From: a virus
IMG/VR virus record: IMGVR_UViG_3300001041_000017
Coordinates: 16,058-80,057 of that record
Length of the DNA stretch: 64,000 nt
Reading direction: 5' to 3' (one strand)
Part shown: positions 3,137 through 63,429 of the stretch, one piece after another
How the letters are laid out: every line of letters starts with the position of its first letter
Numbering within the stretch: position 1 is the stretch's first letter
Position numbers and translations under genes: made by a program
The notes under the pieces: model-generated
What the model was told of the DNA's origin: nothing
What the model saw: the letters and a program-made list of their open reading frames with translations, nothing else
Databases searched by the model: none

Positions 3137-3148
3137 GAGGGAAATAGA

Positions 3149-3784: not shown

Positions 3785-3792
3785 GAAAACAT

Positions 3793-3829
3793 AAGGAATC
3801 GGAATAGAGATATTCTGGTTCCTTTTTTT
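3793..3829 (+). terminator. Intrinsic terminator after the major tail gene
   Basis: AAGGAATCGGAATA / TATTCTGGTTCCTT stem plus T run. Confidence 0.75.
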
Positions 3830-3869
3830 ATGAAATTTATGAAATATAAATAATAGGAGGTTTTATTTT

Positions 3870-4313: not shown

Positions 4314-4687
4314 AAATTGATCCTAATTGGTATATAAAACTTGTAGGATTCATGGGTAGAGAGTACAACTATTCCCCAGATACAGTTGCAGAATTGTATC
4401 CTGGGGAAATTTTATGTTTGGTTAATGAGGCCAAACAAAGGAAAGAAGATGAGTTTAAATTAGAGGGAACCAAAAAGATAATAGAATATTTGTCATTAAT
4501 AAATATTCAGCATGGAGATCCAGAAGAAGTTAGGAGAGAATTATTAAAATCTCTGGAATCAGAGAGTCCATACTATAAGAAAGAAGAAAGAGATGAAGAA
4601 GGTTTTCAAAGATTAAAAGAAATGCAAGAAAGAATAAAAGAAACAAGTATAAGAGGAAGAGTAAATATAAAAATGGGTGGTGAATAG
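4238..4687 (+). CDS. Tail assembly chaperone gpT-like segment reached by -1 frameshift
   Basis: The -1 frame from the heptamer is open (KKVPAGTDGSTGGNAERPSEESEKVEIDPNWYIKLVGF) and runs into ORF 4352-4687. Confidence 0.75.
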   Translation, partial: KKVPAGTDGSTGGNAERPSEESEKVEIDPNWYIKLVGFMGREYNYSPDTVAELYPGEILCLVNEAKQRKEDEFKLEGTKKIIEYLSLINIQHGDPEEVRRELLKSLESESPYYKKEERDEEGFQRLKEMQERIKETSIRGRVNIKMGGE

Positions 4688-7820: not shown

Positions 7821-7823
7821 TAA

Positions 7824-9116
7824 ATGTCTTTTACAGACTGTTTTAAATTATACAGAATAGATGATACATCTCCAACATATTCTGAAAACTTTGATTATGA
7901 ATCAGCTAAATTTGGAGATCAGAATCAAAATAATTTCATAGCAAATATGGGACATGGAACATTTTTTAAAGTAATAAAAGATGGCTATTTAACACAGGCC
8001 AAAGCTATTCTTAACTGTATATCGCAGGGAGGATACTTTAAATGTCTAGTTAATGTATACAAAACAGACGGTACTTCCTTAGAATATATTTCTTCTGCCG
8101 AAGCTATAAGATCAGTTACATCACCAGGAAAAGCGGATTTATGGATAAGTTTCGATAACCTTTATTTGTTGGAAGGAACTTATTATATAGCACTCTGGCC
8201 GGATGTCTCTACCTCCCCAGCAAACGGTTGGCAGATTTTAGCTGCAACAGGAAGTGTTGAAGAAACAGAATATATAGAAAAACCAGAAACATTAATCGGT
8301 GGATTTAATGGTAGTGGAATTTCTCAATCTGGAGCATACATTACAGAATATTTTGATCATTATTGTATTGTAGAAATACTTATGGGAAATATAACGGCTG
8401 GCTCATCCTCTTCTTCTGAAGACTGGAATATTGTCACAGGTTCTTCTTGGGAAACGGGAGTTCCTTGGAGTATTCTAAAAAGTAAAGAAAAAGAAATAGG
8501 ATCTAGATGTGTTTATACGCAGGAAAAAACATTTAACAAACCTGGAGTTGTTAAATTTACAAGAAGAATTTTTGTTAATTTAAAAGAAACAAATAATCAA
8601 AAAAGTAAACTTAGTTTTTTCATAGATGGAATATTAAAAGTATCATGGAAAGGAATTCACCCTTGGGAATTGTTTGATACCTATTTTATATTTCCTGCCG
8701 GAGAACATACTTTTACTTGGATTTTTGAAATAGAAGAAGAGGGGTCTTACGCAGAACTTGGATTAATAGAGTATTATAAGTTTCCCCCATTGAATGATAT
8801 AGAAATAATGGAGTATAAACCTGGAAGACCAGAAATAGTTATGGCTGAGACTTCGGTTATAGACGGTTTTTCTGGGTGGCAACGGGGAGCATATAAAGGT
8901 ACTGTTTTCAGTATGAAATTATACATATATGAAAACGATGCTTATTTGGACTTTATAAAAAATCTGGACAAGGCTTATATATGGGTAGATGAATTATGTA
9001 TCCCATATGTAGGCGTTTTCGTTCTGGAAGATGATATAAGTAAAATTGGGGCTAACTGTGCTTATATTGTCTCTTGCAAGCTACACTGTCCTCAAATGGC
9101 AGGTGTAGGAGCATGA
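7824..9116 (+). CDS. Tail protein (distal-tail position)
   Basis: Follows the tape measure gene; beta-rich. Confidence 0.5.
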   Translation: MSFTDCFKLYRIDDTSPTYSENFDYESAKFGDQNQNNFIANMGHGTFFKVIKDGYLTQAKAILNCISQGGYFKCLVNVYKTDGTSLEYISSAEAIRSVTSPGKADLWISFDNLYLLEGTYYIALWPDVSTSPANGWQILAATGSVEETEYIEKPETLIGGFNGSGISQSGAYITEYFDHYCIVEILMGNITAGSSSSSEDWNIVTGSSWETGVPWSILKSKEKEIGSRCVYTQEKTFNKPGVVKFTRRIFVNLKETNNQKSKLSFFIDGILKVSWKGIHPWELFDTYFIFPAGEHTFTWIFEIEEEGSYAELGLIEYYKFPPLNDIEIMEYKPGRPEIVMAETSVIDGFSGWQRGAYKGTVFSMKLYIYENDAYLDFIKNLDKAYIWVDELCIPYVGVFVLEDDISKIGANCAYIVSCKLHCPQMAGVGA

Positions 9117-51075: not shown

Positions 51076-52245
51076 TTGGCAAAAGAAAAAGTTAATAAAA
51101 AGTCTAAAAAAGATTCAAATGAGCCTGTTGATATCCTTTCCCTAATAGCCGGGGATTATGCAAAGAATCGTGCCGGAAAAATGGATCAGAAAAAATGTAT
51201 TCAAATGGTTAAATGTATTTTTAGTTCAGCTAACAGGGCTTTCGGTGGAGCCATACCAACATCTTGTACTATGGTACTCCAGGGGCCAACATACGGAGGC
51301 AAAACAGCATTAGCTCAAGCAATTTTAAAAGGATTCGTTGAAGAAGGACATACTGGTATTTTTGTTGATGCAGAAAAGGGAGTTCACGAAACAGAAGAAA
51401 AGAAATCCTGGTATAGAATTCTTTTAGGTGAAGAAAATTACGGAAAAGTTATGTATTTCAGGCCTAAAACACATGAAGACTGTTCAAACAATGTAGACTA
51501 TTGGATGTTAAATTTTGCGGAAAAAAGAAAAGAAGGAAAGATTCCTAAAAATAAATGTCTATGTATAGTTGTAGATTCAGTAACAGCTTTAGTTCCAGAA
51601 GAAATATTCAAATTAATTAAAACCAAAGAAGCTGTAGGTAAAGCTAACTTTGGTAAACAGGCAGCATTAAATAGTCAGTGGATTCAATTAGCTAATTCTA
51701 TAATAGGTTCTGATGATATAACAGAAAGTACAAATATACTACTAATATTTATTATGCAAGAAAGATCAAAGATGGATGCTGGAAAGTTTGAAGAGAAATT
51801 TAAAGGGACCGGTGGAGAGGCTATCCCATTTTATTCAACAATATCTGTTAGAGTAACACCTTCTGGGGCAATAAAAGAAGGTTCCAAGGATAAAGAAAAA
51901 AGAGTAGGGAAGAGACATAAATTTACGATTAGAAAGAATCGAATAGGAATATCAGATGAAGAAGGTTATTTCTATACAAGCAACGGAAAAGGAATGATTC
52001 CTTTAGGTTTAGATTTGGTAAGAGAAGCGGTAACAGAAGCAATTGAAAGAGAAATTATTAAGAAAAACGGTTCAGATGTAAGATTGTTTGGAGAAAAATA
52101 TCATGGAGAACCGGAGTTAATAAGAGAGTTATTTGAGAAGGAAGAATTATTTAAAAAGTTAAAAAATGCTCTGGATAATAATTTTGCAGGTACATATGAA
52201 ATAGATAAGATAGAAGAATCAAAAAAGAAAAAGAAGGTTAAGTAG
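51076..52245 (+). CDS. recA: RecA/UvsX-like recombinase
   Basis: GPTYGGKT, FVDAE, VVDSVTALVP, TGGEAI.FY and KNR motifs. Confidence 0.9.
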   Translation: MAKEKVNKKSKKDSNEPVDILSLIAGDYAKNRAGKMDQKKCIQMVKCIFSSANRAFGGAIPTSCTMVLQGPTYGGKTALAQAILKGFVEEGHTGIFVDAEKGVHETEEKKSWYRILLGEENYGKVMYFRPKTHEDCSNNVDYWMLNFAEKRKEGKIPKNKCLCIVVDSVTALVPEEIFKLIKTKEAVGKANFGKQAALNSQWIQLANSIIGSDDITESTNILLIFIMQERSKMDAGKFEEKFKGTGGEAIPFYSTISVRVTPSGAIKEGSKDKEKRVGKRHKFTIRKNRIGISDEEGYFYTSNGKGMIPLGLDLVREAVTEAIEREIIKKNGSDVRLFGEKYHGEPELIRELFEKEELFKKLKNALDNNFAGTYEIDKIEESKKKKKVK

Positions 52246-53379
52246 TTGAAGAAAATAAAGATACCCAGAAAAGAAAAGATCCTTCTTGTTAAACCAGTAT
52301 TCAAATTCATACCTTTAGCTTTAATGAAATTAAGTACTTATCATAAGGGTTTAGGAGATATTGTTGAATATACAGAAGGAATAAGAAGTAAGTTAAAATA
52401 TTATGATAAAATTTATATAACATCACTTTTTACCTGGGAATACAGAAAAGTAATAGATGCAATTAATACCTATAAATTCAGAACAGATGAATTAATAGTT
52501 GGTGGACATTTAACAACTTTTGCTCCAGAACTAATTGAATCTCTTGTCAAATATTCTCCTAACAAAATAACCTATCATCAAGGATTGTATTATGAAGAAG
52601 TAGACAGATCTAAGATTGATTACAGTATATTTAATTTAAACTATTCAATAGCAACAGCCACAAAAGGATGTATAAGAAAATGTGGTTTCTGCGGTGTAAA
52701 ATATTTAGAACCAAATTACATTGACTACATCCCAATAAAACCTCAGATAGACGAAACAAGACAACATCTTCAGCTTTGGGGTAATAATGATTTTGCAAGT
52801 AGTAAATTTGATAGGATAATTGAGGAATTAATTTCATTAGGATTTCATAAAGGGGCTAAAATGAATAATCGGCAAAGATATGTAGACTTTAATCAAGGAA
52901 CAGATTGTAGATTATTCAACAAAGAAATAGCCAAATTGGTTTCAAAAGTGAACATTTACCCATTAAGATTTTCATTCGATTCTATGAAAGAAGATGTATA
53001 TTTCCAAAATGCTATAAAACTAGCTGCGAAGTTTGGAATAAAGACTTTTAGTTCTTATATTCTTTATAATTGGAAAGATACTCCCGAAGAATTTTACTAT
53101 AGATGTAGAGAAATAGTAGAATTAAGTAAGGAATTAGATTTAAGAATTTCTGGTTTCCCTATGAAATACATTCCAGTAAATCATTTAGATAGGACTTATG
53201 TTTGTGATAAATGGACAAAGCATAATTTGAATATGATAAGAGTTATAACAATTGCTACAAGAGGTATGTTACCCATGAAATTAGAAACATTCAAAGTTTA
53301 TTTCGGTAAGAATGAAAAAGAGTTCGTTAATTTAATTAATTCAAGCGAAGACTATATCAGGAATAGATTGAAAGGGTGA
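52246..53379 (+). CDS. Radical SAM protein with B12-binding-like N-terminal domain
   Basis: PLALMKLSTYHK, ITSLFTW, VGG, GCIRKCGFC (CxxxCxxC) and DFNQG.D.RL motifs. Confidence 0.85.
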   Translation: MKKIKIPRKEKILLVKPVFKFIPLALMKLSTYHKGLGDIVEYTEGIRSKLKYYDKIYITSLFTWEYRKVIDAINTYKFRTDELIVGGHLTTFAPELIESLVKYSPNKITYHQGLYYEEVDRSKIDYSIFNLNYSIATATKGCIRKCGFCGVKYLEPNYIDYIPIKPQIDETRQHLQLWGNNDFASSKFDRIIEELISLGFHKGAKMNNRQRYVDFNQGTDCRLFNKEIAKLVSKVNIYPLRFSFDSMKEDVYFQNAIKLAAKFGIKTFSSYILYNWKDTPEEFYYRCREIVELSKELDLRISGFPMKYIPVNHLDRTYVCDKWTKHNLNMIRVITIATRGMLPMKLETFKVYFGKNEKEFVNLINSSEDYIRNRLKG

Positions 53380-53383
53380 TAAA

Positions 53384-53662
53384 ATGAATATTATAAAATA
53401 CGGCGTAGTTGGTGTTTATCAAGAAATAAGAAAAACAGATATTATACTTTTTGTTTATAGTAAAAAAACTTCTGAATTATTTAGAATAAATATTGAGATA
53501 CCCATTAAGAAATTCAGAAACTTATTAAAGAGAATCAAAGATGATGAGAAATTTATAAAGTTTGATGATAGAGTTACTTGTAGAATAATTGATGGATATT
53601 ATCAGCTTTATTATCAAGGTTCAGAATTCAACTTTGAATTAGAAGTGTTGAATAAGATATAA
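53384..53662 (+). CDS. Hypothetical protein
   Basis: ORF with RBS; coupled to the next gene. Confidence 0.55.
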   Translation: MNIIKYGVVGVYQEIRKTDIILFVYSKKTSELFRINIEIPIKKFRNLLKRIKDDEKFIKFDDRVTCRIIDGYYQLYYQGSEFNFELEVLNKI

Positions 53663-54417
53663 TGGGAGACTACTTAATAATATCTTCAGACTGGCATTTA
53701 GGAAAGCCAGGAGAGATAGACAGAACTCCAAACATAATAAAATCAGTAAGACAGTCGATAGATAGAGCGACATTATTAAAAAGAAAAGGAAATAAAGTAG
53801 TTTACCTAATGGCCGGAGATATGTTTGACGGAAACAATCCTACTCCTAAACTAATCTCCGAAGCTATTAAACTACTTAACAAATTAGAACGTAACATGGT
53901 TCCTACAGTAGTAATAGTAGGAAACCATGAAACTATCTCTCAGAAGGGCAAGAAACATGCTCTAGAACCACTACAAGCTGTTGGATATGAGAATGTTTCG
54001 ATAGTAGATAAAGTAGAATTAATAGAGAAACTAAAACTAAATGTCATATGTATTCCCCATATGACAAAAGCAAGGGTTAAAGAATTAGGTTTCGATAGTG
54101 TTAAAAAGTACATCAAGAAAGAATGTCTAAGATTAATCAGAGACTATATTATTTATTTGCATAGCCCAACAATTGTTCTTTCTCACCATATGATTAGCGG
54201 AGTAAAGTTAAATTTCTCAGAGGAAGAATATATAGATGATGAAAAAGTATTTCCAGAATTTTTACTTAACAACGAAAGAATAAAATATATAATAAATGGA
54301 CATATTCATAAACCTCAAATGTTTGGAAACATAATAATCCCAGGTTCTATAGAATGTATGGACTTTGGAGAGAGAAACGATATTAAATGTTATGTGGAGG
54401 TGAAGTTAAATGATTAA
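53662..54417 (+). CDS. sbcD: SbcD/Mre11-like nuclease, phosphoesterase half
   Basis: SDWHLG, AGD.FD, GNHE, SHH, GHIH.PQ and GS....DFGE motifs. Confidence 0.9.
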   Translation: MGDYLIISSDWHLGKPGEIDRTPNIIKSVRQSIDRATLLKRKGNKVVYLMAGDMFDGNNPTPKLISEAIKLLNKLERNMVPTVVIVGNHETISQKGKKHALEPLQAVGYENVSIVDKVELIEKLKLNVICIPHMTKARVKELGFDSVKKYIKKECLRLIRDYIIYLHSPTIVLSHHMISGVKLNFSEEEYIDDEKVFPEFLLNNERIKYIINGHIHKPQMFGNIIIPGSIECMDFGERNDIKCYVEVKLND

Positions 54418-54652
54418 CACAAAATGCCCTTATGGTATAATAGGGTGTATAAAAGATAAATGTGGGTTTTTTAAAGGTGAAGAAAATATAAGTTTAAGCG
54501 ACAAGTTGACTTTTAAAGTTGTTTTATGTGAGGCTATGAATCTTACTCCTCAAGAAATGATTCAGAAACAGTTAGATAAAATGGCTGAAAAAATATCTGA
54601 AAGAATGTTAAAAGAAGCTTCAAGAATTATGTTTTTTAGTTTATGTCCGTAA
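54410..54652 (+). CDS. Small Cys-rich hypothetical protein inserted between the SbcD halves
   Basis: GGAGGTG RBS; CP.....C....C motif. Confidence 0.6.
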   Translation: MINTKCPYGIIGCIKDKCGFFKGEENISLSDKLTFKVVLCEAMNLTPQEMIQKQLDKMAEKISERMLKEASRIMFFSLCP

Positions 54653-55029
54653 AATTCAGAAAGGTAAATTACCTCCGGCATGTTCAGTTAACATTTGATT
54701 TAACTAATGAACCGGACAAAATAGAAAGCCTACATGAACACATCAAAATAAAAGATATAAAAGATGCTAATGTATCATTCAAAATTTATATCCTGGAGAA
54801 TGATGTTCATAGATTAGATTTAAGTTTAGTCATAGAAAAAATAAAGAAACATGCAAAATATCATACTAAAATACATCCTACCATAGTAAAAACGAAAATG
54901 GTAAGGATTAAAAATCTAACAGCAAATGAAGATCCAATTAAAGCGTTAAGAAAATTTGTAGAAGCTAAAAACCCTTCTTTTTCAAAGGAAATAATAAAAA
55001 AGGGTAAAGCTATTATTAAGGGGGAATAA
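54643..55029 (+). CDS. Probable SbcD C-terminal (capping/Rad50-binding) half
   Basis: 'V.FRK....R.V.L.FD...I.DA.V...I...DP..AL..F' continues an SbcD sequence. Confidence 0.6.
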   Translation: MSVKFRKVNYLRHVQLTFDLTNEPDKIESLHEHIKIKDIKDANVSFKIYILENDVHRLDLSLVIEKIKKHAKYHTKIHPTIVKTKMVRIKNLTANEDPIKALRKFVEAKNPSFSKEIIKKGKAIIKGE

Positions 55030-55031
55030 GA

Positions 55032-55469
55032 ATGATAGGTGATTCTGTAATGAAAATAGCGTTAATAAGTTGCTCAAAATCTAAATTGAATATGGAGTGT
55101 AAAGCAAGAATACTATATTCTCCTTCGATACTATTTACAAAAGCAAGAAATCATGTCGAATCAAGTTTTAGTATATACTACATTCTTTCAGCTAAACATG
55201 GACTACTTGATCCAGACAAGATAATTAAACCATATGATAAATCGTTATTCAATTTAACAAACAAAGAAAGAAAAGATTGGGCTAACTTAGTATGTAAAGA
55301 AATAATAGAAAAACATCCTAATCTAAAATATGTGGATATTTATGCTGGAAAGCTATACAGAGTACATTTAATCAAACTACTAGAAAAACACGGAATCAAG
55401 TGTAATGTACCATTGCAAGGTTTAGGAATAGGCCAGCAGCTAAACTTTTATAAAACAGAGGGTTTTTAA
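55032..55469 (+). CDS. DUF6884-like protein
   Basis: LISCSKSK, A..LY.S.LF, ILSAKHGL, I.PYD..L, AG..Y and PL.GLGIG.QL motifs. Confidence 0.75.
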   Translation: MIGDSVMKIALISCSKSKLNMECKARILYSPSILFTKARNHVESSFSIYYILSAKHGLLDPDKIIKPYDKSLFNLTNKERKDWANLVCKEIIEKHPNLKYVDIYAGKLYRVHLIKLLEKHGIKCNVPLQGLGIGQQLNFYKTEGF

Positions 55470-55472
55470 AAG

Positions 55473-56285
55473 TTGATACTTTATATTTCTAAGACAGGAA
55501 ATAAGATGTCTGGAAAACTTTTAAGACAAGAATTCTTTTGCAAACATATTTGTATTAGTCCTCACTATAAAGTTTGGATGGACAATCCCAAAGCAAGTAT
55601 ATTATTGGACTCAGGAGCATTTCAAGACAGAGGAAAAGAGGATCGGTTATCTTTCAAAGATGCTTTAGCAAGACAATTAAAGCATGAAAAGAAAATGAAT
55701 TTTATATCTCAAAGAATTGTTTCTTACGATTACATAGGAAATGTAGAAGAAACATTGAAAGCTAATAAATTCTTGATAAGAAGAAGAGAGGAATTAAGTC
55801 CTAGGCAGCTAGTATTAACCTGTCAAGGAAATACGATTAAAGAGTATATTTATTGCATTATAGAAACATTGAAAATGATGGATCGAAAAGATTGTCTAGG
55901 AATTGGGGGTAATGCTCTAGCTGGGAAAGATAAAGGTGTTAGAAAGAAACTTTTAGACATCTTTAAGTTTGGAATACCTCTAATTCTAAACAAAGGAATA
56001 AAACAGATACATATATTCGGTGTAGCCACTTTCGATATATTAAAGGAGATAAGATATTACTTAAATATCTTTGAAATGATGGGATATCGAAACGCTAATA
56101 AATTAAGAATCAGTGTAGACTCATCAACCTATGAAATACAATCAACTTTGGGAAAAGTAATAAATATGGAATTAGAAAAGTGGGAAAAGATATATTATAA
56201 GGAAGATAAGTTCGTTAATTATCATCCGGCAGACTTAGCTATTGAAAATATGAAACGTGGAATGAAAATTATTAAAAATATATAA
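55473..56285 (+). CDS. tRNA-guanine transglycosylase/DpdA-like base-exchange enzyme
   Basis: LLDSGAFQ, QG, GIGG, IHIFGV and SVDSS motifs of the TGT barrel. Confidence 0.7.
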   Translation: MILYISKTGNKMSGKLLRQEFFCKHICISPHYKVWMDNPKASILLDSGAFQDRGKEDRLSFKDALARQLKHEKKMNFISQRIVSYDYIGNVEETLKANKFLIRRREELSPRQLVLTCQGNTIKEYIYCIIETLKMMDRKDCLGIGGNALAGKDKGVRKKLLDIFKFGIPLILNKGIKQIHIFGVATFDILKEIRYYLNIFEMMGYRNANKLRISVDSSTYEIQSTLGKVINMELEKWEKIYYKEDKFVNYHPADLAIENMKRGMKIIKNI

Positions 56286-56299
56286 GGAGATGAATTTAT

Positions 56300-56581
56300 T
56301 TGATAACTAGACTTAAAGAAGAACCTAGACCTGGAGAATTATATAGGCATTTCAAAACTAAAAATATTTACGTTGTTTTAGACGTTGGAAATCATACAGA
56401 AAACAAAGAAAGACTTGTAAGTTACACAGAAATAAATTCTCCAATAAATAAAGAACCATACAAGAGACCTCTAGAAATGTTTATGACTTACATAACAAAC
56501 TACGATCATAAATTTCATAGATTTGAAAAAGTAAATCCATTTTTATTATTAGAAAGTCTAAACAAGAATGAAAAACCATAA
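56300..56581 (+). CDS. DUF1653 family protein
   Basis: YRHFK...Y.V...G.HTE..E.LV.Y.......RPL.MF. Confidence 0.85.
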   Translation: MITRLKEEPRPGELYRHFKTKNIYVVLDVGNHTENKERLVSYTEINSPINKEPYKRPLEMFMTYITNYDHKFHRFEKVNPFLLLESLNKNEKP

Positions 56582-57170
56582 ATACGGCGTAATATACGCC
56601 GATCCTCCGTGGCAATACAATAATTACAACTATAAGAAAACGAAAGACGGAAAGAAAGCTAAACGAGGCTGCCGTAAAGAATATAACGTAATGAATATTG
56701 AAGAAGTTAAGAAACTACCAGTCAGAGAAATAGCAGACGAAAACTGTATCCTTTTTTTATGGATTACCTTTCCCCACTTAGAAGAGGCTATGGACGTAAT
56801 CAGGTCATGGGGTTTTGAGTATAAGACTGTAGGATTCGTATGGGTTAAACTTAATAAGAAATCTAAATCATTATTCTGGGGAATGGGAACTAAAACTCGC
56901 TCTAATTCAGAAGTTTGTCTTATTGGAGTTAAAGGTAAACCTAAAAGAGTTTCTGGGGCTGTCCACTCTGTAGTCATAGAAAAAATAGGAGATAAGCATA
57001 GTAGTAAGCCGAAAGAAGTAAGAAGAAGAATTGATAAGCTTATGGGTGATGAAGTAAAGAAAATAGAGTTATTTTCTAGATTAAGTGATGTTCCTGGCTG
57101 GCATCATTGGGGCAGAGAATGCAAATGTAATATAAGAGGATTTAACCGCAAAAAGAAGGTGAAGTACTAG
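56568..57170 (+). CDS. MT-A70 family adenine methyltransferase
   Basis: IYADPPW, LFLW, WGF.YKT..FVWVK, HS.KP and IELFSR motifs. Confidence 0.92.
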   Translation: MKNHKYGVIYADPPWQYNNYNYKKTKDGKKAKRGCRKEYNVMNIEEVKKLPVREIADENCILFLWITFPHLEEAMDVIRSWGFEYKTVGFVWVKLNKKSKSLFWGMGTKTRSNSEVCLIGVKGKPKRVSGAVHSVVIEKIGDKHSSKPKEVRRRIDKLMGDEVKKIELFSRLSDVPGWHHWGRECKCNIRGFNRKKKVKY

Positions 57171-57173
57171 AAT

Positions 57174-59342
57174 ATGATCCTACAAACAATAGGCTGCCAA
57201 AACTTCGGTCCATTCAAGGACTGGAATGAAATAGAGATACCCCAACAAGGGGTTATTTCTATTATCGGAGAATGGAAAGGTCAGAAATCAAGAAGTAACT
57301 GGTCAGGGAAATCTAGTTTTATAGAAATGATAACTTACCTACTTTACGGAAAACACAGAAACAAATCAGACAAAGATCTAATTCATAACAACGCCTCAGA
57401 AGATATGATAGTGAAAGGAACTTTCTTATTAGAAGACGGTTCCCAGATATCAATAACAAGAGGAAAATCATTATCTGGTGATTTAATTTTAGAAGTTGAA
57501 GGATACGAAGGTGAACATAAAAAAGATGTCCAAGAATACCTAAACGAATTAACAGGTTTAGAGTATGAAGACTTTATAAACACATCCTTTTTCCTTCAAG
57601 GAGATATTCACGGAATAGCTACATCCACAAGCAGTAAATTAAAAGAAAAGTTTTCTAGATGGATAAATAATTCTCATTGGGACGACTACTTAGAAACAAC
57701 AAAAGAGTTTATTAAAGGATTGGAAAAAGTAATAAATGAAGTTAATTATGAAATAAACATAATTCAAAAAAAGAAAGACAATTTAGATGAATTGAAATCA
57801 TCTTTGAAAGATTTAAGAGAAGAAAAGGAATTATTATCGTTTGACTTAGAAGGTCTAACAGGTGTAGAAAGCCAGTTAAAGGCTGAATTAAAGAAGATAA
57901 AGGATATGGGTGACGACGACTACCTTCAAACTGAATATAACCATATTCTGAACATTATAGAGGATCTAAAACAAGACAACAAGGAATTATCTGAAAAGAA
58001 AGAGGAAATAGAAGAAAGGTATCAGACAGGATTAAATACTCAGAAAAAGATTAAAAAGATGAAATCTGAACTAAAGGAATATGACAAAATATCATCCTGG
58101 TATGAAGAATTAAAAACACGGCTTGAAAAATACCAAGAGAAATATTTAACAGCCAAAAACTCTATTACCAGAATAAACAAAGAGATTAGAAAAATAGCAG
58201 ACTCAAACGGAGTCTGTCCTTACAAAAATGAAAAATGTAAATACATCTCTATTGATGATATGTTGAATGAATTGAACAAAGAAATAAAAGAGTATTACGG
58301 AATAGAAGACAAAATGATCGAAAAGTTAGATGATGTAAAGAGAGAATTATCAGAAACAGAAAAACATCTTAATAATCTGAGATACATAAAAGGTCAGTTA
58401 AAAACTATTGAAAATATTTCAATTACTACTCTGTCCGACAAAGAAAAGCAAATCAAAAATTGTTCAATAAAAATTAAGAAAAACATCTCTCTAATAAAAG
58501 ATCACAAATCCAAGTTAGAAGAAATAGAAGAAAAGTTATCTCTCCTGGAGGATGACAAGCAAGAGGAAATAGAAAACAAGTTTAAGGAAAACCAAAAAGA
58601 TATTAAGAAACTTAGGCAAAAAATAAATTCATTAACAGAGGAAATCGGTAGTCTTAAAAATCAAATATCAAACATAAAAGAAGAGTCTAAAAAGATTCCA
58701 GACCTAGAAGAAAGTCTACAGGAATTAAAAGAAGAATTACAACAATATCAGTTTCTACAATTTGCATTCGGGAAAGACGGAATAAAGTCTTTCCAGTTTG
58801 AGTCAGCATTCGAAGAAATAGAAATTCAGGTAAACAAAATATTGGACAAATTAGAAACAGATATGTCTCTGGAATTCTCTTCGGTAAAAGAATTGAACGA
58901 CTGGGAAAAGAATTGTCCGGTTTGTGGATGTCTATTTGAGAGTAGGCAGAAACAATGTCCAGAGTGTAGTTGTGAGAGGGGTAAACGGAAGAAAGACGAA
59001 CTATCTATGAGGTTTTATAATGGAGAGTCTGAAATGGAGTTCACACAAGCTTCTGGAGGACTTAAAGTAATACTTAGTTTAGCTATTCGGTTAGCTATAT
59101 CTAATTTGAAAAGAAATAAAAGTGGGAGTAAGGTAGACTTTGTGATTTTAGACGAAATCTTTAGTAATTTAGACAGTATAAATCAGGAATTAGTTTTGAA
59201 ATTAATAAAAAAAGTGATGCTGAAAAATTTAGGTATCAAGCAAATATTTATTATAAGTCATAGATCTGAAATTAGTACATCGTTTGAAAATATTATCAAA
59301 ATTAAAAAGTATGATTCATATTCTACTTTTGGTTGGAGTTGA
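57174..59342 (+). CDS. sbcC: SbcC/Rad50-like ATPase
   Basis: N.SGKSS Walker A, FLQG Q-loop, coiled coil with a CP hook region, SGG signature, LDE and ISH motifs. Confidence 0.92.
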   Translation: MILQTIGCQNFGPFKDWNEIEIPQQGVISIIGEWKGQKSRSNWSGKSSFIEMITYLLYGKHRNKSDKDLIHNNASEDMIVKGTFLLEDGSQISITRGKSLSGDLILEVEGYEGEHKKDVQEYLNELTGLEYEDFINTSFFLQGDIHGIATSTSSKLKEKFSRWINNSHWDDYLETTKEFIKGLEKVINEVNYEINIIQKKKDNLDELKSSLKDLREEKELLSFDLEGLTGVESQLKAELKKIKDMGDDDYLQTEYNHILNIIEDLKQDNKELSEKKEEIEERYQTGLNTQKKIKKMKSELKEYDKISSWYEELKTRLEKYQEKYLTAKNSITRINKEIRKIADSNGVCPYKNEKCKYISIDDMLNELNKEIKEYYGIEDKMIEKLDDVKRELSETEKHLNNLRYIKGQLKTIENISITTLSDKEKQIKNCSIKIKKNISLIKDHKSKLEEIEEKLSLLEDDKQEEIENKFKENQKDIKKLRQKINSLTEEIGSLKNQISNIKEESKKIPDLEESLQELKEELQQYQFLQFAFGKDGIKSFQFESAFEEIEIQVNKILDKLETDMSLEFSSVKELNDWEKNCPVCGCLFESRQKQCPECSCERGKRKKDELSMRFYNGESEMEFTQASGGLKVILSLAIRLAISNLKRNKSGSKVDFVILDEIFSNLDSINQELVLKLIKKVMLKNLGIKQIFIISHRSEISTSFENIIKIKKYDSYSTFGWS

Positions 59343-59346
59343 TTAG

Positions 59347-60303
59347 TTGTCTAAGAAAATAAAATATGCTAAAAATACAGGTGTTTCAGTATGGGAATTA
59401 AAAGAAAGATTGAAACTTCCTTTAGAAATTAAGATAAATATGTCTATCCAGAGAATAATTCAATGGTATGAGTATTACAACGGAAATGTTTATATTTCTT
59501 TTAGTGGGGGTAAGGACAGTACCGTTCTAAATCATCTAGTAAGAAGTATTTATCCAAATGTTCCTGCCGTGTTTTCTAACACTGGTTTGGAATTTCCTGA
59601 GATAGTATCATTTGTTAGAGAGACAGATAATGTAATTTGGGTTTAACCCAAATTACACTTTAAAGAGATTTTAGATAGATACGGCTATCCAGTGATTAGT
59701 AAAGAAAACGCTAGAAAAATACATGATCTACAAAATCCAACAGAGAATAATAAAAGAACAATATCCTTGAGAATGGGATTAGAACCAAGTAGAAATGGAA
59801 AATTTAATGTCGGGATGGTCCCTTTGAAGTGGCAATATTTAAAAGACGCTCCATTTAAAATAAGTGATGCTTGTTGTGAAGTTATGAAGAAAAGACCATT
59901 TAAAATTTATGAGAAAGAACAAGGTAGAAAACCGTTTATAGGTTCAATGGTTTCTGAAAGTAGATTTAGGATGAATAATTATATAAGAAATGGCTGTAAT
60001 GCTTTTAATTTAGACAGACCTTTCAGTATTCCGATTTCTTTCTGGACAGAAGAGGATGTTTGGGAGTATATTAGAATTTTTAATGTACCATATTCAAGAA
60101 TATATGATATGGGATATGATAGAACTGGTTGTGTTTTCTGTCTTTTTGGAACACATTTAGAGCAAAAAAGAGGATTAAATCGTTTTCAAAGAATGTATTC
60201 AACACATCCAAGTCTATGGAAATTCTGTATGAACAAATTAGGATTAAAAGATGTATGTAAATATGTAGGTATTAAAACTATGCCGAGGAAGGTGAAATAT
60301 TGA
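59347..60303 (+). pseudogene. PAPS-reductase-like protein interrupted by one in-frame TAA (59644-59646)
   Basis: SFSGGKDSTVL and NTGLEFPEI, then V*PKLHFKEILDRYGYPVISK, CC..MKK.P and RTGC.FC, all in one frame. Confidence 0.85.
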
Positions 60304-60318
60304 TAGGAGGAATAATTA

Positions 60319-60957
60319 TTGGGTAAATTTATAGATTTAACTGGTCAAAAATTTGGGAGACTTTTAGTTTTGAAAAAGAAAAAGAAAAGACAAAGTCTTC
60401 ATATTGTTTGGTTGTGTAAATGTAAATGTGGAACAAAAGTTTCTGTTTTAGGATATTCTTTGAAAAATGGAAAGACAAAATCATGTGGTTGTTATAATTT
60501 AGAAATGGTAAGAACTCATATGATGAGTGGTACTTATTTATATAAAATATGGATTGATATAAAAGATAGATGTAATAATAAAAACAATACTTCTTATAAG
60601 AATTATGGTAGTAGAGGTATAAAAATTTGCAAAGAGTGGAATAAAGATTTTATGAAATTTAGAGAATGGTGTTTAAATAATGGTTTTGATAAAAGTCTAG
60701 AATTAGATCGTAGAAATAACGATAAGGGTTATTCTCCAGATAATTGTAGGTGGATAACTAAAAAACAAAATAATAGAAATAAAAGAACTAATGTTTTTAT
60801 TATTTATAAAGGAAAAAGAAGAACATTAATAGAGGTTTCAGAATTAACAGGAATAAATTATAGAACATTAGTTGGAAGATATGGTAAAGGTTTTAGAGGA
60901 AAAAATCTTATTTTTATTAGTCAGATAATGAAACTTAAAAAGAGGGTGAAATATTGA
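60319..60957 (+). CDS. Free-standing HNH-type homing endonuclease
   Basis: DLTGQKFGRL, WLC.C.CG, SCGC, YG.RGI and DR.NN..GYSPDNCRW motifs; flanked by 15-bp direct repeats. Confidence 0.85.
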   Translation: MGKFIDLTGQKFGRLLVLKKKKKRQSLHIVWLCKCKCGTKVSVLGYSLKNGKTKSCGCYNLEMVRTHMMSGTYLYKIWIDIKDRCNNKNNTSYKNYGSRGIKICKEWNKDFMKFREWCLNNGFDKSLELDRRNNDKGYSPDNCRWITKKQNNRNKRTNVFIIYKGKRRTLIEVSELTGINYRTLVGRYGKGFRGKNLIFISQIMKLKKRVKY

Positions 60958-61598
60958 TATTAGCACTAGACCTATCGTTAACTGGTTCTGCCTTAATCCT
61001 TTTAGATAAAGGAATAATGCAGGATTTCTGGTTCTTCACACAAATAAAAAAACAAGCAAAACATAAGCAAGCCATATTTTTAAGTAAAGAAATTTCAGAA
61101 TATGAACGCTTAGAGGTCATTACTGATACTACACTTGATATAATAAGAAATAGGGGCAATAAAATAAAGTTTGCTGCCATAGAAGGATATTCGTTTGGAG
61201 TCGTAGGTAAAACATCAAGAATACTCCAAACAGCAGAATTTACAGGACACATTAAAAAATATCTTTATTCGTCAAGAATTCCTTTTAGAATCTATCCTCC
61301 TGACAGAATAAAATTATTCGCAACAGGAAACGGAAACGCAACAAAAGGAATGATGATGGTAGCAGTATTAAAACGATGGGAAAAGATAGACTTTTCTCAG
61401 TTTGGAAAGTCAGCCGAGGATTTAGCAGATGCCTATTCAATAGGCCAGCTATTAACCTGGGAATTGAAAGTAAAAAGAATGATTAATCAAAACAAAAAAC
61501 CTAGACTGAATGCAGCAGAAAAAAAGATCCTATATCATAAAACAAAATCTTTTCCAATCCCATTGCTAGAACAGTCTTTAATCGTTAAAAGGGAGTGA
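60954..61598 (+). CDS. RuvC-like Holliday junction resolvase
   Basis: ILALDLSLTGS, IEGY, K.FATG.GNA.K and D.ADAY motifs. Confidence 0.88.
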   Translation: MILALDLSLTGSALILLDKGIMQDFWFFTQIKKQAKHKQAIFLSKEISEYERLEVITDTTLDIIRNRGNKIKFAAIEGYSFGVVGKTSRILQTAEFTGHIKKYLYSSRIPFRIYPPDRIKLFATGNGNATKGMMMVAVLKRWEKIDFSQFGKSAEDLADAYSIGQLLTWELKVKRMINQNKKPRLNAAEKKILYHKTKSFPIPLLEQSLIVKRE

Positions 61599-61616: not shown

Positions 61617-62153
61617 TTGAAAAAAAACTCCAAACTAAGAGGGAGAAGGTGGTATATAGCCTACATTCCTTACGCTACAAATAGCGATAAAGAAATAAAA
61701 AAGCTTTTAAAAAGAGGAATATTCACAGAAAGAAACATTCAGTTTTATTACCCTAAGTACAAAGTTATCAAGTATAAAAAGGGTAAAAGAAAAGCAGTAT
61801 GGGAACCGTTACTACCCAATTATTGTTTCTTTAAACTCAATGATTACAAAAAAGATTCACCTTTGTTAAAAAGATTTTTACCCATCGTAGGATTTGTAAC
61901 AGAAGATCCTATATCGAAAAAAGAAATACATAATTTAAGAAAGAAATCGAAAGAAGTTAAGAAAACTAAGTTTAATCATTTGGTGGGGAAGACGGTGATT
62001 GCCACAAAAGGATCATTTAGAGGACTTCCTGGAGAATGTGTTAAACTGGTTAAAGGTGATAGGTTACAGGCCAGAGTTCGAATCTATCTTGGAAAGAAAT
62101 ATAAGTTAGATGACAAATTAGTGAATGTCGATGAACTGGAGGTGTTAAACTAG
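61617..62153 (+). CDS. NusG-family transcription elongation/antitermination factor
   Basis: NGN domain (WY...P......K.GK......PLLPNY.F) and KOW motif (GKTV....GSF.G..G). Confidence 0.8.
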   Translation: MKKNSKLRGRRWYIAYIPYATNSDKEIKKLLKRGIFTERNIQFYYPKYKVIKYKKGKRKAVWEPLLPNYCFFKLNDYKKDSPLLKRFLPIVGFVTEDPISKKEIHNLRKKSKEVKKTKFNHLVGKTVIATKGSFRGLPGECVKLVKGDRLQARVRIYLGKKYKLDDKLVNVDELEVLN

Positions 62154-62897
62154 GTGGATGTAAGTGGAATATCTCTAGGTCTATTGGGTGGGTTTATATT
62201 CAATGCAATAAATAATTATTTTAGATCTAGAACATTAGCCAGGATAGGTTCTGAAAATGGAGATGAAAAGATACTTGGACGTTGGTACAACATAAGAAAG
62301 ATTAGAAAAACAGATAGGCTAAGAATAGCTTTCGCCGGAGCCGGAGGAGTAGGTAAGGGAACTTTAGGAGAAATGTTAACTAAGGAACTGGATGGAATAT
62401 TTATCCCTAGTCATATCTCAGAAACAGGCAAAATGATAGGGTTAAAAGATTCTTTCCTGGATAACCCTTCGGATGAATTAAGAATAACCTATCAGTGGTC
62501 TATAATGATAGGTCAAATGTATCAGGAGCGAGCAGCAACACTATCTACAAGACAAGCATTAATCTTTGAAAGAAGTGTTGTAGATTATTTAGGATACCTT
62601 CTAAATTATAAAGAGAATGATATCCTTAAGGAAAGAGATAGGTACATCGAAATAGTAACCGAGTGGACTAAAGTTAGTTATGATGTAATAATCTACATGA
62701 AACCAGACTTCACTCCTTTAGATTCTAAGGTTAATACTTGGAAAGAGAGAGGAGAAGGAAGAGGCAGGACCGGGGAGATTATTTTGAGCTATTTGAAGTT
62801 CATAAAATCATCCGGAGCAAGGTTCCACCTACTTGAAGTCGGTGGAAGTATTGAAGAAAGATTTGACGTAATAAAAAATTTCATAAAAAGTATATAA
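62154..62897 (+). CDS. P-loop nucleotide kinase (NadR/AAA_28-like)
   Basis: RIAF.GAGGVGKGT, ERSVVDY..Y and YD.IIY motifs. Confidence 0.7.
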   Translation: MDVSGISLGLLGGFIFNAINNYFRSRTLARIGSENGDEKILGRWYNIRKIRKTDRLRIAFAGAGGVGKGTLGEMLTKELDGIFIPSHISETGKMIGLKDSFLDNPSDELRITYQWSIMIGQMYQERAATLSTRQALIFERSVVDYLGYLLNYKENDILKERDRYIEIVTEWTKVSYDVIIYMKPDFTPLDSKVNTWKERGEGRGRTGEIILSYLKFIKSSGARFHLLEVGGSIEERFDVIKNFIKSI

Positions 62898-62967
62898 TAG
62901 TATTGATTATTTTTTAAGTTATCATTTATAATACAGATAATATAAAAACGAGAGGGGAAATAAAACA

Positions 62968-63429
62968 ATGGCAGGTAAAGCAGAGGTAGCTAAAATAGGT
63001 GGAGTTAAGGCCGAAGCGGTAGAAGGAACTATAAAAGGTATTCTGGAACTTGTAAGATCGGGTAAGAAGGTAACGCTTCACGGTCTTGGGACATTTGATG
63101 TAATCTACAGAAAGCCCAGAATGGGAAGGAACCCTCAAACCGGAGAAGAGGCTCCAATGGAGGAAAGACCAGTCCTTAAACTGGAGGTCAACAAAGAACT
63201 CCGGCAAGAACTGTACGACGACAAAGCACTTCTTAAGTTAGTTAAACAAAAACACAAAGACAAAGAAGCTGCTAAAAAGGCAAGAAAAGAAGCCAAAGAA
63301 AATGGTGATTCTGGAGATGCCGAGAAAAAAGCTTCAACAAAAACAGCTAAAGGGAGCAACGTCAAAGACGGTAAAACCTCAAAAGTCGATGGCGAAAAAA
63401 CCGCTAAAAACAAAAGCTCTAAAAAGTAG
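62968..63429 (+). CDS. HU/IHF-like DNA-binding protein with Lys-rich tail
   Basis: GKKVTL.GLGTF....RKPR.GRNPQTGE. Confidence 0.92.
   Translation: MAGKAEVAKIGGVKAEAVEGTIKGILELVRSGKKVTLHGLGTFDVIYRKPRMGRNPQTGEEAPMEERPVLKLEVNKELRQELYDDKALLKLVKQKHKDKEAAKKARKEAKENGDSGDAEKKASTKTAKGSNVKDGKTSKVDGEKTAKNKSSKK

What the first reader, a model, noticed from the sequence alone, without database searches (positions are those of the whole stretch)
52246..60303. Putative novel DNA-modification cluster: TGT/DpdA-like + DUF6884 + radical SAM + MT-A70 + PAPS-reductase-like
Seen: these five genes are interleaved among recA, sbcD, sbcC and ruvC, with DUF6884 directly upstream of the TGT-like gene. No folE/queD/queE/queC genes occur in the window. 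Known: phage DpdA exchanges guanine for 7-deazaguanines in DNA, and euryarchaeal archaeosine synthesis uses TGT, ArcS and the radical SAM enzyme RaSEA. Inference: the DUF6884 'LISCSKSK' motif recalls the ArcS 'PCS..KPY' cysteine motif, so the trio could insert a host-derived base and elaborate it into an undescribed modification that blocks restriction. Alternatively the genes are independent accessories.
Basis: partly seen in the sequence, partly recalled or inferred. Interest (0 to 1): 0.72.

Follow-up and report, generated by a model that had tools for sequence, protein, structure and literature searches.

The report
Phage deazaguanine DNA-modification gene pair
Two adjacent genes of this groundwater phage (a very divergent guanine-swapping enzyme and a small DpdC-like helper) form a conserved module that most likely puts a 7-deazaguanine base into the phage's DNA to escape restriction, while the other three genes of the proposed five-gene cluster are unrelated accessories.

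Summary
All five genes are at the stated coordinates, with two corrections. The "TGT-like" gene (55473-56285) matches no sequence profile and is recognisable only by its fold. The PAPS-reductase-like gene is cut by an in-frame TAA.

Only two genes belong together: DUF6884 (55032-55469) and the TGT-fold gene 3 bases downstream.
- In 14 related viral contigs that share no other gene with this region, DUF6884 abuts the TGT-like gene in 7.
- A YhhQ/Vut_1 preQ0-transporter gene abuts it in 11.
- The closest relative has queD-queE-queC-DUF6884-TGT-like in a row.

The pair is therefore a new, minimal, zinc-site-free DpdA subfamily plus a short DpdC-like protein. The predicted reaction is guanine to preQ0 in DNA, then probably to the amide (dADG). 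No precursor synthesis or import gene lies in the 80-kb record, which is about 67% complete.

The radical SAM gene (B12-domain type, not RaSEA-like), MT-A70 and PAPS reductase do not co-occur with the pair.

The DUF6884 model matches AF0587 (Z 9.4), and its CxxxK aligns with the ArcS PCxxxKPY.

This scan found the same cassette before, on a Paenibacillus-type prophage (e1-5744635).

Verdict: a new variant of a known kind, of moderate interest.

The parts
55032..55469 (+). DUF6884 protein (145 aa), a short DpdC-like / YaaA-fold protein. Proposed role: acts on the nitrile of preQ0 already in DNA. Candidate active-site residues are C14 and K18 (CxxxK) and L52-S53-A54..G57 (LSAxxG).
   Evidence: - PF21818 E 1.6e-41; PADLOC PDC-M57A E 3e-31.
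- Conserved residues from alignment A3.
- AlphaFold model pLDDT 95.4. VIA-align Z 10.3 to YaaA 5caj and Z 9.4 to AF0587 2q07, with the next match at 6.3.
- Adjacent to the TGT-like gene in 7 of 14 related viral contigs, and it is the only DUF6884 copy in each.
55473..56285 (+). TGT-fold protein (270 aa, TTG start) of a new minimal DpdA-type subfamily. Proposed role: exchanges guanine in DNA for a 7-deazaguanine. Invariant residues are D46-S47 (DSGAFQ), D86, Q118-G119, G145, H180, G183 and D216. It has no CxCxxC zinc motif.
   Evidence: - AlphaFold model pLDDT 95.5. Foldseek PDB top hits are all TGT, E 6e-8, TM 0.66-0.70.
- BFVD hits are phage 'queuine tRNA-ribosyltransferase'/DpdA proteins, including Vibrio phage nt-1 and Cellulophaga phiST, at 11-16% identity.
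- Invariant columns from alignments A1 and A2.
- hhalign against E. coli TGT aligns QG, GG, HxxG and D216 with D264. DSGAFQ corresponds to E. coli DSGGFQ at D89.
- Neighbours in relatives are YhhQ/Vut_1 (11 of 14) and queD-queE-queC (L001).
52246..53379 (+). Radical SAM protein (377 aa) with a B12-binding-like N-terminal part. Not part of the module; function unknown.
   Evidence: - phrog_9298 E 9e-45; CxxxCxxC motif.
- Atlas neighbours are cobalamin-binding/radical SAM clusters of phages and Bacillota.
- Homologues occur in phages of anaerobes that lack the TGT-like gene.
- Present in 2 of 15 related records and far from the pair in one.
- No RaSEA similarity.
56568..57170 (+). MT-A70 family N6-adenine DNA methyltransferase, an orphan phage MTase. 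Independent of the module.
   Evidence: - PF05063 E 1.4e-30; PADLOC MTase_II E 2e-58.
- 0 of 14 related records carry it, with a positive control on the phage's own record.
59347..60303 (+). PAPS-reductase-like PP-loop protein (phrog_424 / BrxP-like), interrupted by an in-frame TAA at 59644-59646. Independent of the module and probably inactive or split.
   Evidence: - PF01507 hits on both halves; phrog_424; BrxP.
- Translation shows the stop. It aligns with Arg of the intact L016 homologue.
- The TAA is reproduced in the run X4 contig.
- The family is present in only 2 of 14 related records.
56300..56581 (+). DUF1653 small protein between the TGT-like gene and MT-A70. No evidence that it belongs to the module.
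   Evidence: PF07866 E 2.5e-13. No homologue lies near the TGT-like gene in any related locus.

Best explanation
Genes 55032-55469 (DUF6884) and 55473-56285 (TGT fold) form a two-gene phage module for 7-deazaguanine modification of DNA.

Inferred steps:
1. The base 7-cyano-7-deazaguanine (preQ0), or a close precursor, comes from the host's queuosine pathway or from the unsequenced third of the phage genome.
2. The TGT-fold enzyme, a new minimal DpdA subfamily without the zinc subdomain, exchanges guanine in phage DNA for that base. D216 would be the ribosyl-enzyme nucleophile, D46 of DSGAFQ the acid/base, and D86 the base-recognition residue.
3. The DUF6884 protein flips the modified base into its cleft, and Cys14 (with Lys18) attacks the nitrile. 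[quoted passage not shown]

The result would be phage DNA protected from restriction.

Shown here: the folds, the conserved residues, and gene-neighbourhood conservation with YhhQ and queDEC. Inferred: the substrate, DNA as the target, the chemistry and the product.

The radical SAM, MT-A70 and interrupted PAPS-reductase genes are separate accessories that happen to sit in the same replication/recombination block.
For: - Fold: TGT for P0001. Its viral matches are phage DpdAs.
- TGT core motifs are invariant across 69 family members and align with E. coli TGT, including the nucleophile Asp.
- Neighbourhood: DUF6884 abuts the TGT-like gene in L001-L006 and L009. Gene order is rearranged in L004, and none of the other window genes I searched for lies in those loci.
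- A Vut_1/YhhQ gene abuts the TGT-like gene in 11 of 14 viral records.
- L001 carries queD, queE, queC, DUF6884 and TGT-like in a row, flanked by a DNA methylase and Mom.
- Some family members are fused to ParB_N+HTH_ParB, which recalls the ParB-like DpdB and points to DNA as the target.
- DUF6884 is the Pfam family assigned to DpdC (PMC11888242). DpdC converts preQ0-DNA to ADG-DNA independently of DpdA/B (PMC10164549).
- The DUF6884 partners in L001 and L009 hit the PADLOC DpdC models at E 8e-5 and 3e-3.
- Pfam's authors predict that DUF6884 binds DNA and flips a base next to the CxxxK and LSAxxG motifs (PMC11701544).
- Phages that encode a DpdA but no synthesis genes are known, and Pantoea phage MED16 of that kind carries dADG (PMC6884629, PMC8306585).
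Against: - This phage's own 80-kb record has no YhhQ, queC, queD or folE, so the precursor supply is unknown.
- P0002 itself does not reach the DpdC models, and at 145 aa it is half the length of the ~310-position DpdC models.
- The TGT-like protein lacks the zinc site, matches no TGT sequence profile, and shows no detectable similarity to DpdA4.
- The DUF6884 member YfjM has been linked to DNA-lesion binding (PMC11701544), and here the pair sits among RecA, SbcCD and RuvC.
- No biochemical or mass-spectrometry data exist for any member of this subfamily.
Confidence: 0.6

Rival explanations
1. One reading: the TGT-like, DUF6884 and radical SAM genes (plus MT-A70 and PAPS reductase) act as one pathway that elaborates an inserted base into an undescribed hypermodification.
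For: - All five genes lie within 8 kb on one strand.
- DUF6884 resembles the ArcS-specific domain, and in archaea ArcS works with a radical SAM partner (PMC11298593).
- In L016 a weak radical SAM homologue and a PAPS reductase lie 6 kb from a TGT-like gene.
Against: - The radical SAM family is absent from 13 of 15 related records, MT-A70 from 14 of 14, and PAPS reductase from 12 of 14.
- The radical SAM protein is not RaSEA-like. Its relatives occur in phages that have no TGT-like gene.
- The PAPS-reductase gene carries a nonsense codon.
Confidence: 0.06
2. The pair modifies RNA (host or phage tRNA) rather than DNA, like canonical TGT and ArcS.
For: The fold matches tRNA-guanine transglycosylases. 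The DUF6884 fold resembles the ArcS-type domain, which acts on tRNA.
Against: - There are no PUA or tRNA-binding C-terminal domains, and the protein is a bare 270-aa barrel.
- The nearest viral structures are DpdAs.
- ParB (DNA-binding) fusions exist.
- Neighbours in L001 are DNA methylase and Mom, both DNA modifiers.
- DpdC and DUF6884 are DNA-directed according to PMC10164549 and PMC11701544.
Confidence: 0.1
3. The pair is a DNA-repair or base-excision module. A TGT-fold glycosylase and a lesion-binding DUF6884 protein would serve the neighbouring RecA/SbcCD/RuvC recombination genes and would not install a modification.
For: The pair sits inside a recombination/repair block. The DUF6884 member YfjM was found among proteins that bind abasic and RNA-base lesions (PMC11701544).
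Against: - In relatives the pair travels with a preQ0 transporter or with queDEC, not with repair genes.
- The full set of TGT transglycosylation motifs is conserved.
Confidence: 0.1
4. The module is present but idle in this phage, because neither the phage nor its anaerobic spore-forming host supplies a 7-deazaguanine precursor.
For: The 80-kb record has no synthesis or import gene. Clostridium hosts of DpdA-only phages lack the preQ0 pathway (PMC6884629).
Against: - Both ORFs are intact with all invariant residues.
- They are almost identical in a second sample's contig, while nearby SbcC varies.
- About a third of the genome is unseen.
Confidence: 0.1

Closest known systems
Bacterial Dpd modification module DpdA/DpdB/DpdC (Salmonella Montevideo; PMC10164549)
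   Same: A TGT-fold transglycosylase is paired with a DUF6884/YaaA-clan protein. The predicted chemistry is guanine to preQ0 in DNA, then nitrile to amide (dADG). Relatives sit next to que genes and YhhQ, as many dpd islands do (PMC11888242).
   Different: - There is no DpdB/ParB-like ATPase and no DpdD-K restriction genes.
- The DUF6884 protein is 145 aa against DpdC models of 312 and 319 positions, and it does not reach the DpdC HMMs.
- The transglycosylase is 270 aa, lacks the zinc site, and is missed by the TGT Pfam model.
- The module is phage-borne.
Phage DpdA subfamilies DpdA1-DpdA4 (PMC6884629, PMC10516641)
   Same: A phage-encoded TGT-fold enzyme is predicted to insert 7-deazaguanines after replication. 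DpdA-only phages that rely on the host or on YhhQ are a known class. Structural matches include Vibrio phage nt-1 (a DpdA2-encoding phage) and Cellulophaga phiST (a DpdA3-encoding phage).
   Different: - There is no tblastn hit in 50,697 phage genomes.
- Identity to any BFVD DpdA model is 11-16%.
- hhalign to HVTV-1 DpdA4 finds nothing.
- The systematic partner is a DUF6884 protein. None of the phage papers I read describes a phage-encoded DpdC.
Archaeosine synthase ArcS (DUF5591 domain, PCxxxKPY motif) with RaSEA (PMC11298593)
   Same: DUF6884 has the same fold as AF0587/2q07 (Z 9.4). Its CxxxK and SAxxG motifs align with 'PCSRTKPY' and 'SSPLG' of a Thermoplasmata ArcS. Both would act on the nitrile of preQ0 that is already in a polynucleotide.
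   Different: - There is no TGT-like N-domain or PUA domain.
- Sequence significance is weak (E 0.012-0.16).
- The phage radical SAM protein is unrelated to RaSEA.
- That 2q07 represents the ArcS-type domain is my recollection and was not tested here.
DUF6884-TGT-like-VUT salvage cassette of a Paenibacillus-type prophage
   Same: It is the same protein family (shared words) and the same DUF6884 + TGT-like adjacency. I recovered that cassette independently in L002-L006 and L009.
   Different: The window's phage lacks the transporter gene: DUF1653 and MT-A70 follow the TGT-like gene instead. Its host is probably an anaerobe, judged from nrdG.

Membership tests
TGT/DpdA superfamily | TGT-type TIM-barrel fold | tested here: met
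   The AlphaFold model has pLDDT 95.5. Its top ~200 Foldseek PDB hits are all TGT (E 6e-8, TM 0.66-0.70). BFVD hits are phage DpdA/TGT proteins.
TGT/DpdA superfamily | Catalytic Asp residues in the DSGGxQ motif and the nucleophile Asp after the last strand | tested here: met
   D46 (DSGAFQ) and D216 are invariant in 69 sequences. hhalign aligns D216 with E. coli TGT D264 in 'MFDCV'. E. coli has DSGGFQ at D89. The catalytic roles are assigned from my knowledge of bacterial TGT.
TGT/DpdA superfamily | Zinc-binding CxCxxC...H subdomain of canonical TGT | tested here: not met
   No such motif follows D216 in the 270-aa protein. E. coli TGT has it at C302.
TGT/DpdA superfamily | Match to the Pfam TGT model PF01702 | tested here: not met
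   None of 30 family members hits PF01702 at E<=1. Three hit DUF6610 (the DpdA4 family) weakly, best E 0.0095.
TGT/DpdA superfamily | Genomic link to 7-deazaguanine synthesis or salvage genes | tested here: met
   The link holds in relatives: YhhQ/Vut_1 is adjacent in 11 of 14, and queD-queE-queC is adjacent in L001. It does not hold in the phage's own 80-kb record.
TGT/DpdA superfamily | Guanine / 7-deazaguanine exchange on DNA | not testable with these tools
   This needs an enzyme assay or LC-MS of DNA.
Known phage DpdA1-DpdA4 | Detectable sequence similarity to a described subfamily | tested here: not met
   tblastn against 50,697 phage records finds nothing. hhalign against HVTV-1 DpdA4 gives probability 0.3. 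Identity to BFVD DpdA models is 11-16%.
DpdC | DUF6884/YaaA-type fold with CxxxK and LSAxxG motifs | tested here: met
   PF21818 E 1.6e-41. C14, K18, L52, S53, A54 and G57 are conserved. Z 10.3 to YaaA 5caj.
DpdC | Match to the DpdC profile models and DpdC-like length (~310 aa) | tested here: not met
   P0002 (145 aa) hits only PDC-M57A. The partners in L001 and L009 hit DpdC models weakly, at E 8e-5 and 3e-3.
DpdC | Encoded next to a dpdA gene | tested here: met
   The gap is 3 bases here. The genes are also adjacent in 7 related viral contigs.
DpdC | Converts preQ0-DNA to ADG-DNA | not testable with these tools
   This was shown only for Salmonella DpdC (PMC10164549).
Dpd restriction-modification system | DpdB (DndB/ParB-like ATPase) and DpdD-K restriction genes | tested here: not met
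   The phage's own record has no DndB (PF14072) or ParB_N (PF02195). DpdD-K were not searched for individually.
ArcS (archaeosine synthase) | DUF5591 domain with the PCxxxKPY motif | tested here: inconclusive
   Structure gives Z 9.4 to 2q07. hhalign puts C14/K18 on the Cys and Lys of 'PCSRTKPY', but at E 0.16 (single sequence) and 0.012 (domain profile).
RaSEA (radical SAM partner of ArcS) | Similarity of the window's radical SAM protein to TIGR01210-type proteins | tested here: not met
   P0003 has no TIGR01210 hit at E<=0.1. BLASTP against the Thermoplasmata TIGR01210 protein gives E 1.4. That TIGR01210 is RaSEA is my recollection; it co-occurs with DUF5591 in the same three control archaea.
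PAPS reductase / DndC / BrxP-like PP-loop enzymes | Intact PP-loop domain | tested here: not met
   Both halves match PF01507, but an in-frame TAA separates profile positions 2-48 from 80-172.

The most novel reading that the evidence does not exclude
The short DUF6884 protein may not be a simple DpdC-type hydratase. It could be an ArcS-like enzyme that transfers an amine (ammonia, lysine or another donor) onto the nitrile of preQ0 in DNA. The product would be dG+ or an undescribed amidine adduct. If so, DUF6884/DpdC and the ArcS DUF5591 domain would be one ancient family of 'nitrile-activating' enzymes that act on preQ0 in polynucleotides. In this phage the B12-type radical SAM enzyme could then process the adduct, as RaSEA does.
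Probability: 0.12. Interest if true: 0.8.

Novelty: new variant of a known kind. Interest (0 to 1): 0.55.

Why it matters
DpdA is treated as the signature protein for 7-deazaguanine in viral DNA (PMC10516641). The family found here escapes that signature: the TGT Pfam model misses it, and it has no BLAST hit in 50,697 sequenced phages. It nevertheless forms 289 clusters at 50% identity in metagenomes, prophages of Paenibacillus, gut Firmicutes and archaeal MAGs. Surveys of modified phage DNA therefore probably undercount it.

The family is also the smallest TGT-fold enzyme of this kind that I saw (270 aa, no zinc subdomain). It comes with a phage-encoded DpdC-like partner, which none of the phage 7-deazaguanine papers I read describes. 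That offers a compact two-gene tool for site-directed DNA deazaguanine modification. It also gives a testable link between DpdC and ArcS chemistry.

For phage biology, the module predicts resistance of this abundant groundwater phage to restriction at sites that contain guanine.

Tried and rejected
I took gene contexts from the search for related loci and the genome search instead.
- Sequence searches of the TGT-like protein against Pfam, NCBIfam, PHROGs, PADLOC and PDB sequences, alone or as profiles A1 and A2, gave nothing meaningful.
- tblastn of the TGT-like protein against the phage collection gave no hit.
- blastn of the region found only a 162-bp chance-level match to a Nitrosopumilaceae virus.
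- hhalign against the single HVTV-1 DpdA4 sequence was negative. This is a weak test, because the template is one sequence.
- Radical SAM as QueE: rejected. The window's protein has a B12-domain-like architecture, and the only other radical SAM gene in the record is NrdG.
- Radical SAM as RaSEA: rejected.
- Stop-codon recoding as the reason for the TAA in the PAPS-reductase gene: rejected. TAA is the commonest ordinary stop (28 of 52 long ORFs) and the other long genes are intact.
- The promoter/terminator scan showed nothing above the shuffled expectation.
- I could not reach the more complete (~120 kb) copy of this phage to look for que or yhhQ genes in the missing third.
- One paper search ('AF0587'/'ArcS') was uninformative because 'ARCS' is a common word.

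Full report
**What is in the sequence.**
The window is the right-hand 64 kb of an 80,057-bp IMG/VR virus record, rated about 67% complete. It has about 31% G+C, and every gene in the region lies on the + strand.

Between 51 and 62 kb the order is as follows:

| Coordinates | Gene |
|---|---|
| 51076-52245 | RecA |
| 52246-53379 | radical SAM protein |
| 53384-53662 | small unknown |
| 53662-54417 | SbcD |
| 54410-54652, 54643-55029 | two small unknowns |
| 55032-55469 | DUF6884 |
| 55473-56285 | 270-aa protein with no family hit |
| 56300-56581 | DUF1653 |
| 56568-57170 | MT-A70 |
| 57174-59342 | SbcC |
| 59347-60303 | PAPS-reductase-like gene |
| 60319-60957 | HNH endonuclease |
| 60954-61598 | RuvC |

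A consensus scan finds no promoters or terminators above the shuffled expectation. The block therefore reads as one long transcription unit, and adjacency within this window is not evidence of shared function.

**The 'TGT-like' gene.**
No sequence method recognises it. I tried Pfam, NCBIfam, PHROGs, PADLOC and PDB sequences, with the single protein and with profiles.

Its fold is clear.
- An AlphaFold model built on 30 homologues has mean pLDDT 95.5.
- The best ~200 Foldseek matches in the PDB are all tRNA-guanine transglycosylases (E 6e-8, TM 0.66-0.70 on the query).
- Against predicted viral structures, the matches are phage 'queuine tRNA-ribosyltransferases'. They include proteins of Vibrio phage nt-1 and Cellulophaga phage phiST, both phages with known deazaguanine DNA, at only 11-16% identity.

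Across 69 diverse family members, D46-S47 (in 'DSGAFQ'), D86, Q118-G119, G145, H180, G183 and D216 are invariant.
- E. coli TGT has 'DSGGFQ' at D89.
- A profile alignment to E. coli TGT pairs QG with QG187, GG with 'GGLAVGE', 'HIFGV' with 'YLMGVG', and D216 with D264 of 'MFDCV' (E 0.0098 against a single-sequence template).
- The canonical CxCxxC zinc motif is absent.

The protein is therefore a stripped-down TGT barrel that keeps the transglycosylation residues.

**What the relatives say.**
The family is small: 289 clusters at 50% identity among 1.84 billion representatives. It has no tblastn hit in 50,697 phage genomes. It occurs in large uncultured phages, Paenibacillus/Aneurinibacillus proviruses, gut Firmicutes contigs and archaeal MAGs.

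I fetched 14 viral and 5 genomic loci. Apart from DUF6884, the window genes I searched for were absent from them, except for weak RuvC and PAPS-reductase hits in L010-L012 and a radical SAM plus PAPS-reductase pair in L016. The contexts are therefore independent of the window's.

- The single DUF6884 gene of each record abuts the TGT-like gene in L001-L006 and L009. In L004 the gene order is rearranged.
- In 11 of 14 viral records, the gene on the other side is a Vut_1/YhhQ family transporter. YhhQ is the preQ0 importer (cited in PMC6884629).
- The closest relative (L001, 56% identity) has no transporter. It carries QueD (PTPS), a QueE-type radical SAM, QueC, DUF6884, a 73-aa ORF and the TGT-like gene in a row, flanked by a DNA methylase and Mom.
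- Two family members are fused to ParB_N+HTH_ParB. This recalls the ParB-like DpdB helper of bacterial DpdA.

Together these observations tie the enzyme to preQ0-type bases and to DNA. They are the strongest evidence in this report.

**DUF6884.**
- Pfam's authors describe CxxxK and LSAxxG motifs, a YaaA-like fold, and a predicted DNA-binding, base-flipping cleft (PMC11701544).
- The GATOR-GC study assigns DUF6884 to DpdC of bacterial dpd islands (PMC11888242). Another paper files DpdC under the related DUF328/YaaA family (PMC12839542).
- DpdC converts preQ0 in DNA to the amide ADG, independently of DpdA/B (PMC10164549).
- The window protein keeps C14, K18, L52-S53-A54 and G57.
- Its model (pLDDT 95.4) matches YaaA 5caj at Z 10.3.

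It is not an orthologue of DpdC. It is 145 aa long, hits PADLOC's candidate family PDC-M57A (E 3e-31), and does not reach the DpdC models. Its counterparts in L001 and L009 reach them only weakly, at E 8e-5 and 3e-3.

I therefore call it DpdC-like by fold, motifs and gene context. The amide product is the likeliest outcome, not an established one.

**The ArcS analogy.**
The second structural match is AF0587/2q07 (Z 9.4, 119 residues aligned). It stands well above the next match at Z 6.3.

I took an archaeosine synthase from a Thermoplasmata genome that also holds a TGT-like homologue: DUF5591 E 1e-41, named archaeosine synthase by JGI for its close relatives.
- It carries 'VPCSRTKPYRVSPSH' at the start of DUF5591.
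- hhalign places DUF6884 'ISCSKSK' on 'VPCSRTK' (Cys on Cys, Lys on Lys), 'LSAKHGLL' on 'VSSPLGVV', and 'PYD' on 'HYD'.
- Significance is low: E 0.16 against the single sequence, and 0.012 against a low-diversity domain profile.

That 2q07 represents the ArcS-type domain is my recollection and was not tested here.

**The other three genes.**

*Radical SAM protein.*
- It has a B12-binding-like N-terminal part.
- It belongs to a family found in phages of anaerobes: Bacteroides LoVEphage, Clostridium phiCT453B and Marinitoga MCV1. None of these phages has the TGT-like gene.
- Among 15 records with the TGT-like gene, only two have even a weak partial homologue, one of them 42 kb away.
- It has no similarity to the TIGR01210 protein that accompanies ArcS in archaea.

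*MT-A70.* It is absent from all 14 related viral records, with a positive control on the phage's own record. It looks like an ordinary orphan adenine methyltransferase (PADLOC MTase_II, E 2e-58).

*PAPS-reductase-like gene.*
- It occurs in 2 of 14 records.
- Here it is broken by an in-frame TAA at 59644-59646, which aligns with an Arg of the intact L016 homologue.
- The same TAA is present, without any difference, in a contig from a second groundwater sample.
- TAA is the commonest normal stop in this window, so recoding is unlikely.

**Mechanism and its limits.**
The most likely sequence has two steps.
1. The TGT-fold enzyme swaps guanine in phage DNA for preQ0.
2. The DUF6884 protein flips that base out, attacks its nitrile with Cys14 and hydrates it to ADG.

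The modified DNA would resist restriction.

The weak point is supply. The 80-kb record contains no queC, queD, folE, yhhQ or queE, and its second radical SAM gene is nrdG. It also lacks a DpdB/ParB helper.

Precedents exist. Seventy-six phages encode only a DpdA (PMC6884629), and Pantoea phage MED16, which has no synthesis genes, carries dADG (PMC8306585). A third of this genome is also unseen. Notes from this scan suggest an anaerobic spore-forming host, and some clostridia lack the preQ0 pathway (PMC6884629). An idle module therefore cannot be excluded.

**Novelty.**
The concept is known: DpdA plus a DpdC-type partner yields deazaguanine DNA. Three things are new.
- The enzyme subfamily is invisible to the TGT profile, zinc-free and 270 aa long.
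- It is systematically paired, in phages, with a short DUF6884 protein and usually a YhhQ-like importer.
- There is structural evidence linking DUF6884 to the ArcS-type domain.

I found no paper that describes this subfamily or a phage DpdC. This scan had already noted the same cassette on a Paenibacillus-type prophage (e1-5744635). I reproduced that result independently from the loci fetched here. Another note of the scan says that DpdC-DpdA fusions are common in databases (e1-2475548). I did not test this, and it tempers the novelty of the pairing itself.

**Scores.** I rate this a new variant of a known kind, with interest 0.55.

Noticed in passing
window 59644-59646: An in-frame TAA splits the PAPS-reductase-like gene into 99-aa and 203-aa ORFs in the same frame. 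It aligns with Arg in an intact homologue and is reproduced in a contig from a second groundwater sample. It is therefore a real nonsense codon and not an assembly error.
   Followed up: yes
window 52246-53379; L016:306-2170; L023 (LoVEphage) 1936-4885: The B12-domain-type radical SAM family of anaerobe phages lies next to a PAPS reductase in a Dialister contig and 2 kb from one in Bacteroides LoVEphage, with Dam nearby. This may be a separate radical SAM + PP-loop pairing of unknown function.
   Followed up: partly
proteins P0104 and P0115: Members of the TGT-like family are fused C-terminally to ParB_N + HTH_ParB domains (912 and 944 aa). This recalls the DpdA-DpdB partnership. Other long fusions (P0097, P0110, P0121, P0144) have no recognisable extra domain.
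   Followed up: partly
L001:4144-9682: A DNA-modification island in the closest related phage carries, back to back, an N6/N4 DNA methylase, QueD, QueE, QueC, DUF6884, a 73-aa ORF, the TGT-like gene and a Mom-family protein.
   Followed up: yes
L013:7278-8100: The TGT-like gene of this provirus matches in two pieces (7278-7733 and 7759-8100). This suggests a frameshift or a stop.
   Followed up: no
G000:C1:4489-5022 (outside the window; L020:1432-1965): The phage encodes an NrdG-type anaerobic ribonucleotide reductase activase (TIGR02491 E 6e-36). This points to an anaerobic host.
   Followed up: partly
window 60319-60957: A free-standing HNH homing-type endonuclease (phrog_374 E 2e-65) lies directly after the broken PAPS-reductase gene and overlaps the start of RuvC.
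   Followed up: no
window 55000-60350 in runs X1-X4: The phage is very abundant in groundwater metagenome assemblies (contig word depth 310-620). In a second sample, SbcC carries many strain differences, while the DUF6884/TGT-like pair differs at one base.
   Followed up: partly
window 61617-63429: A NusG-like protein, a deoxynucleoside-kinase/AAA_28 protein and an HU-like DNA-binding protein follow RuvC.
   Followed up: no
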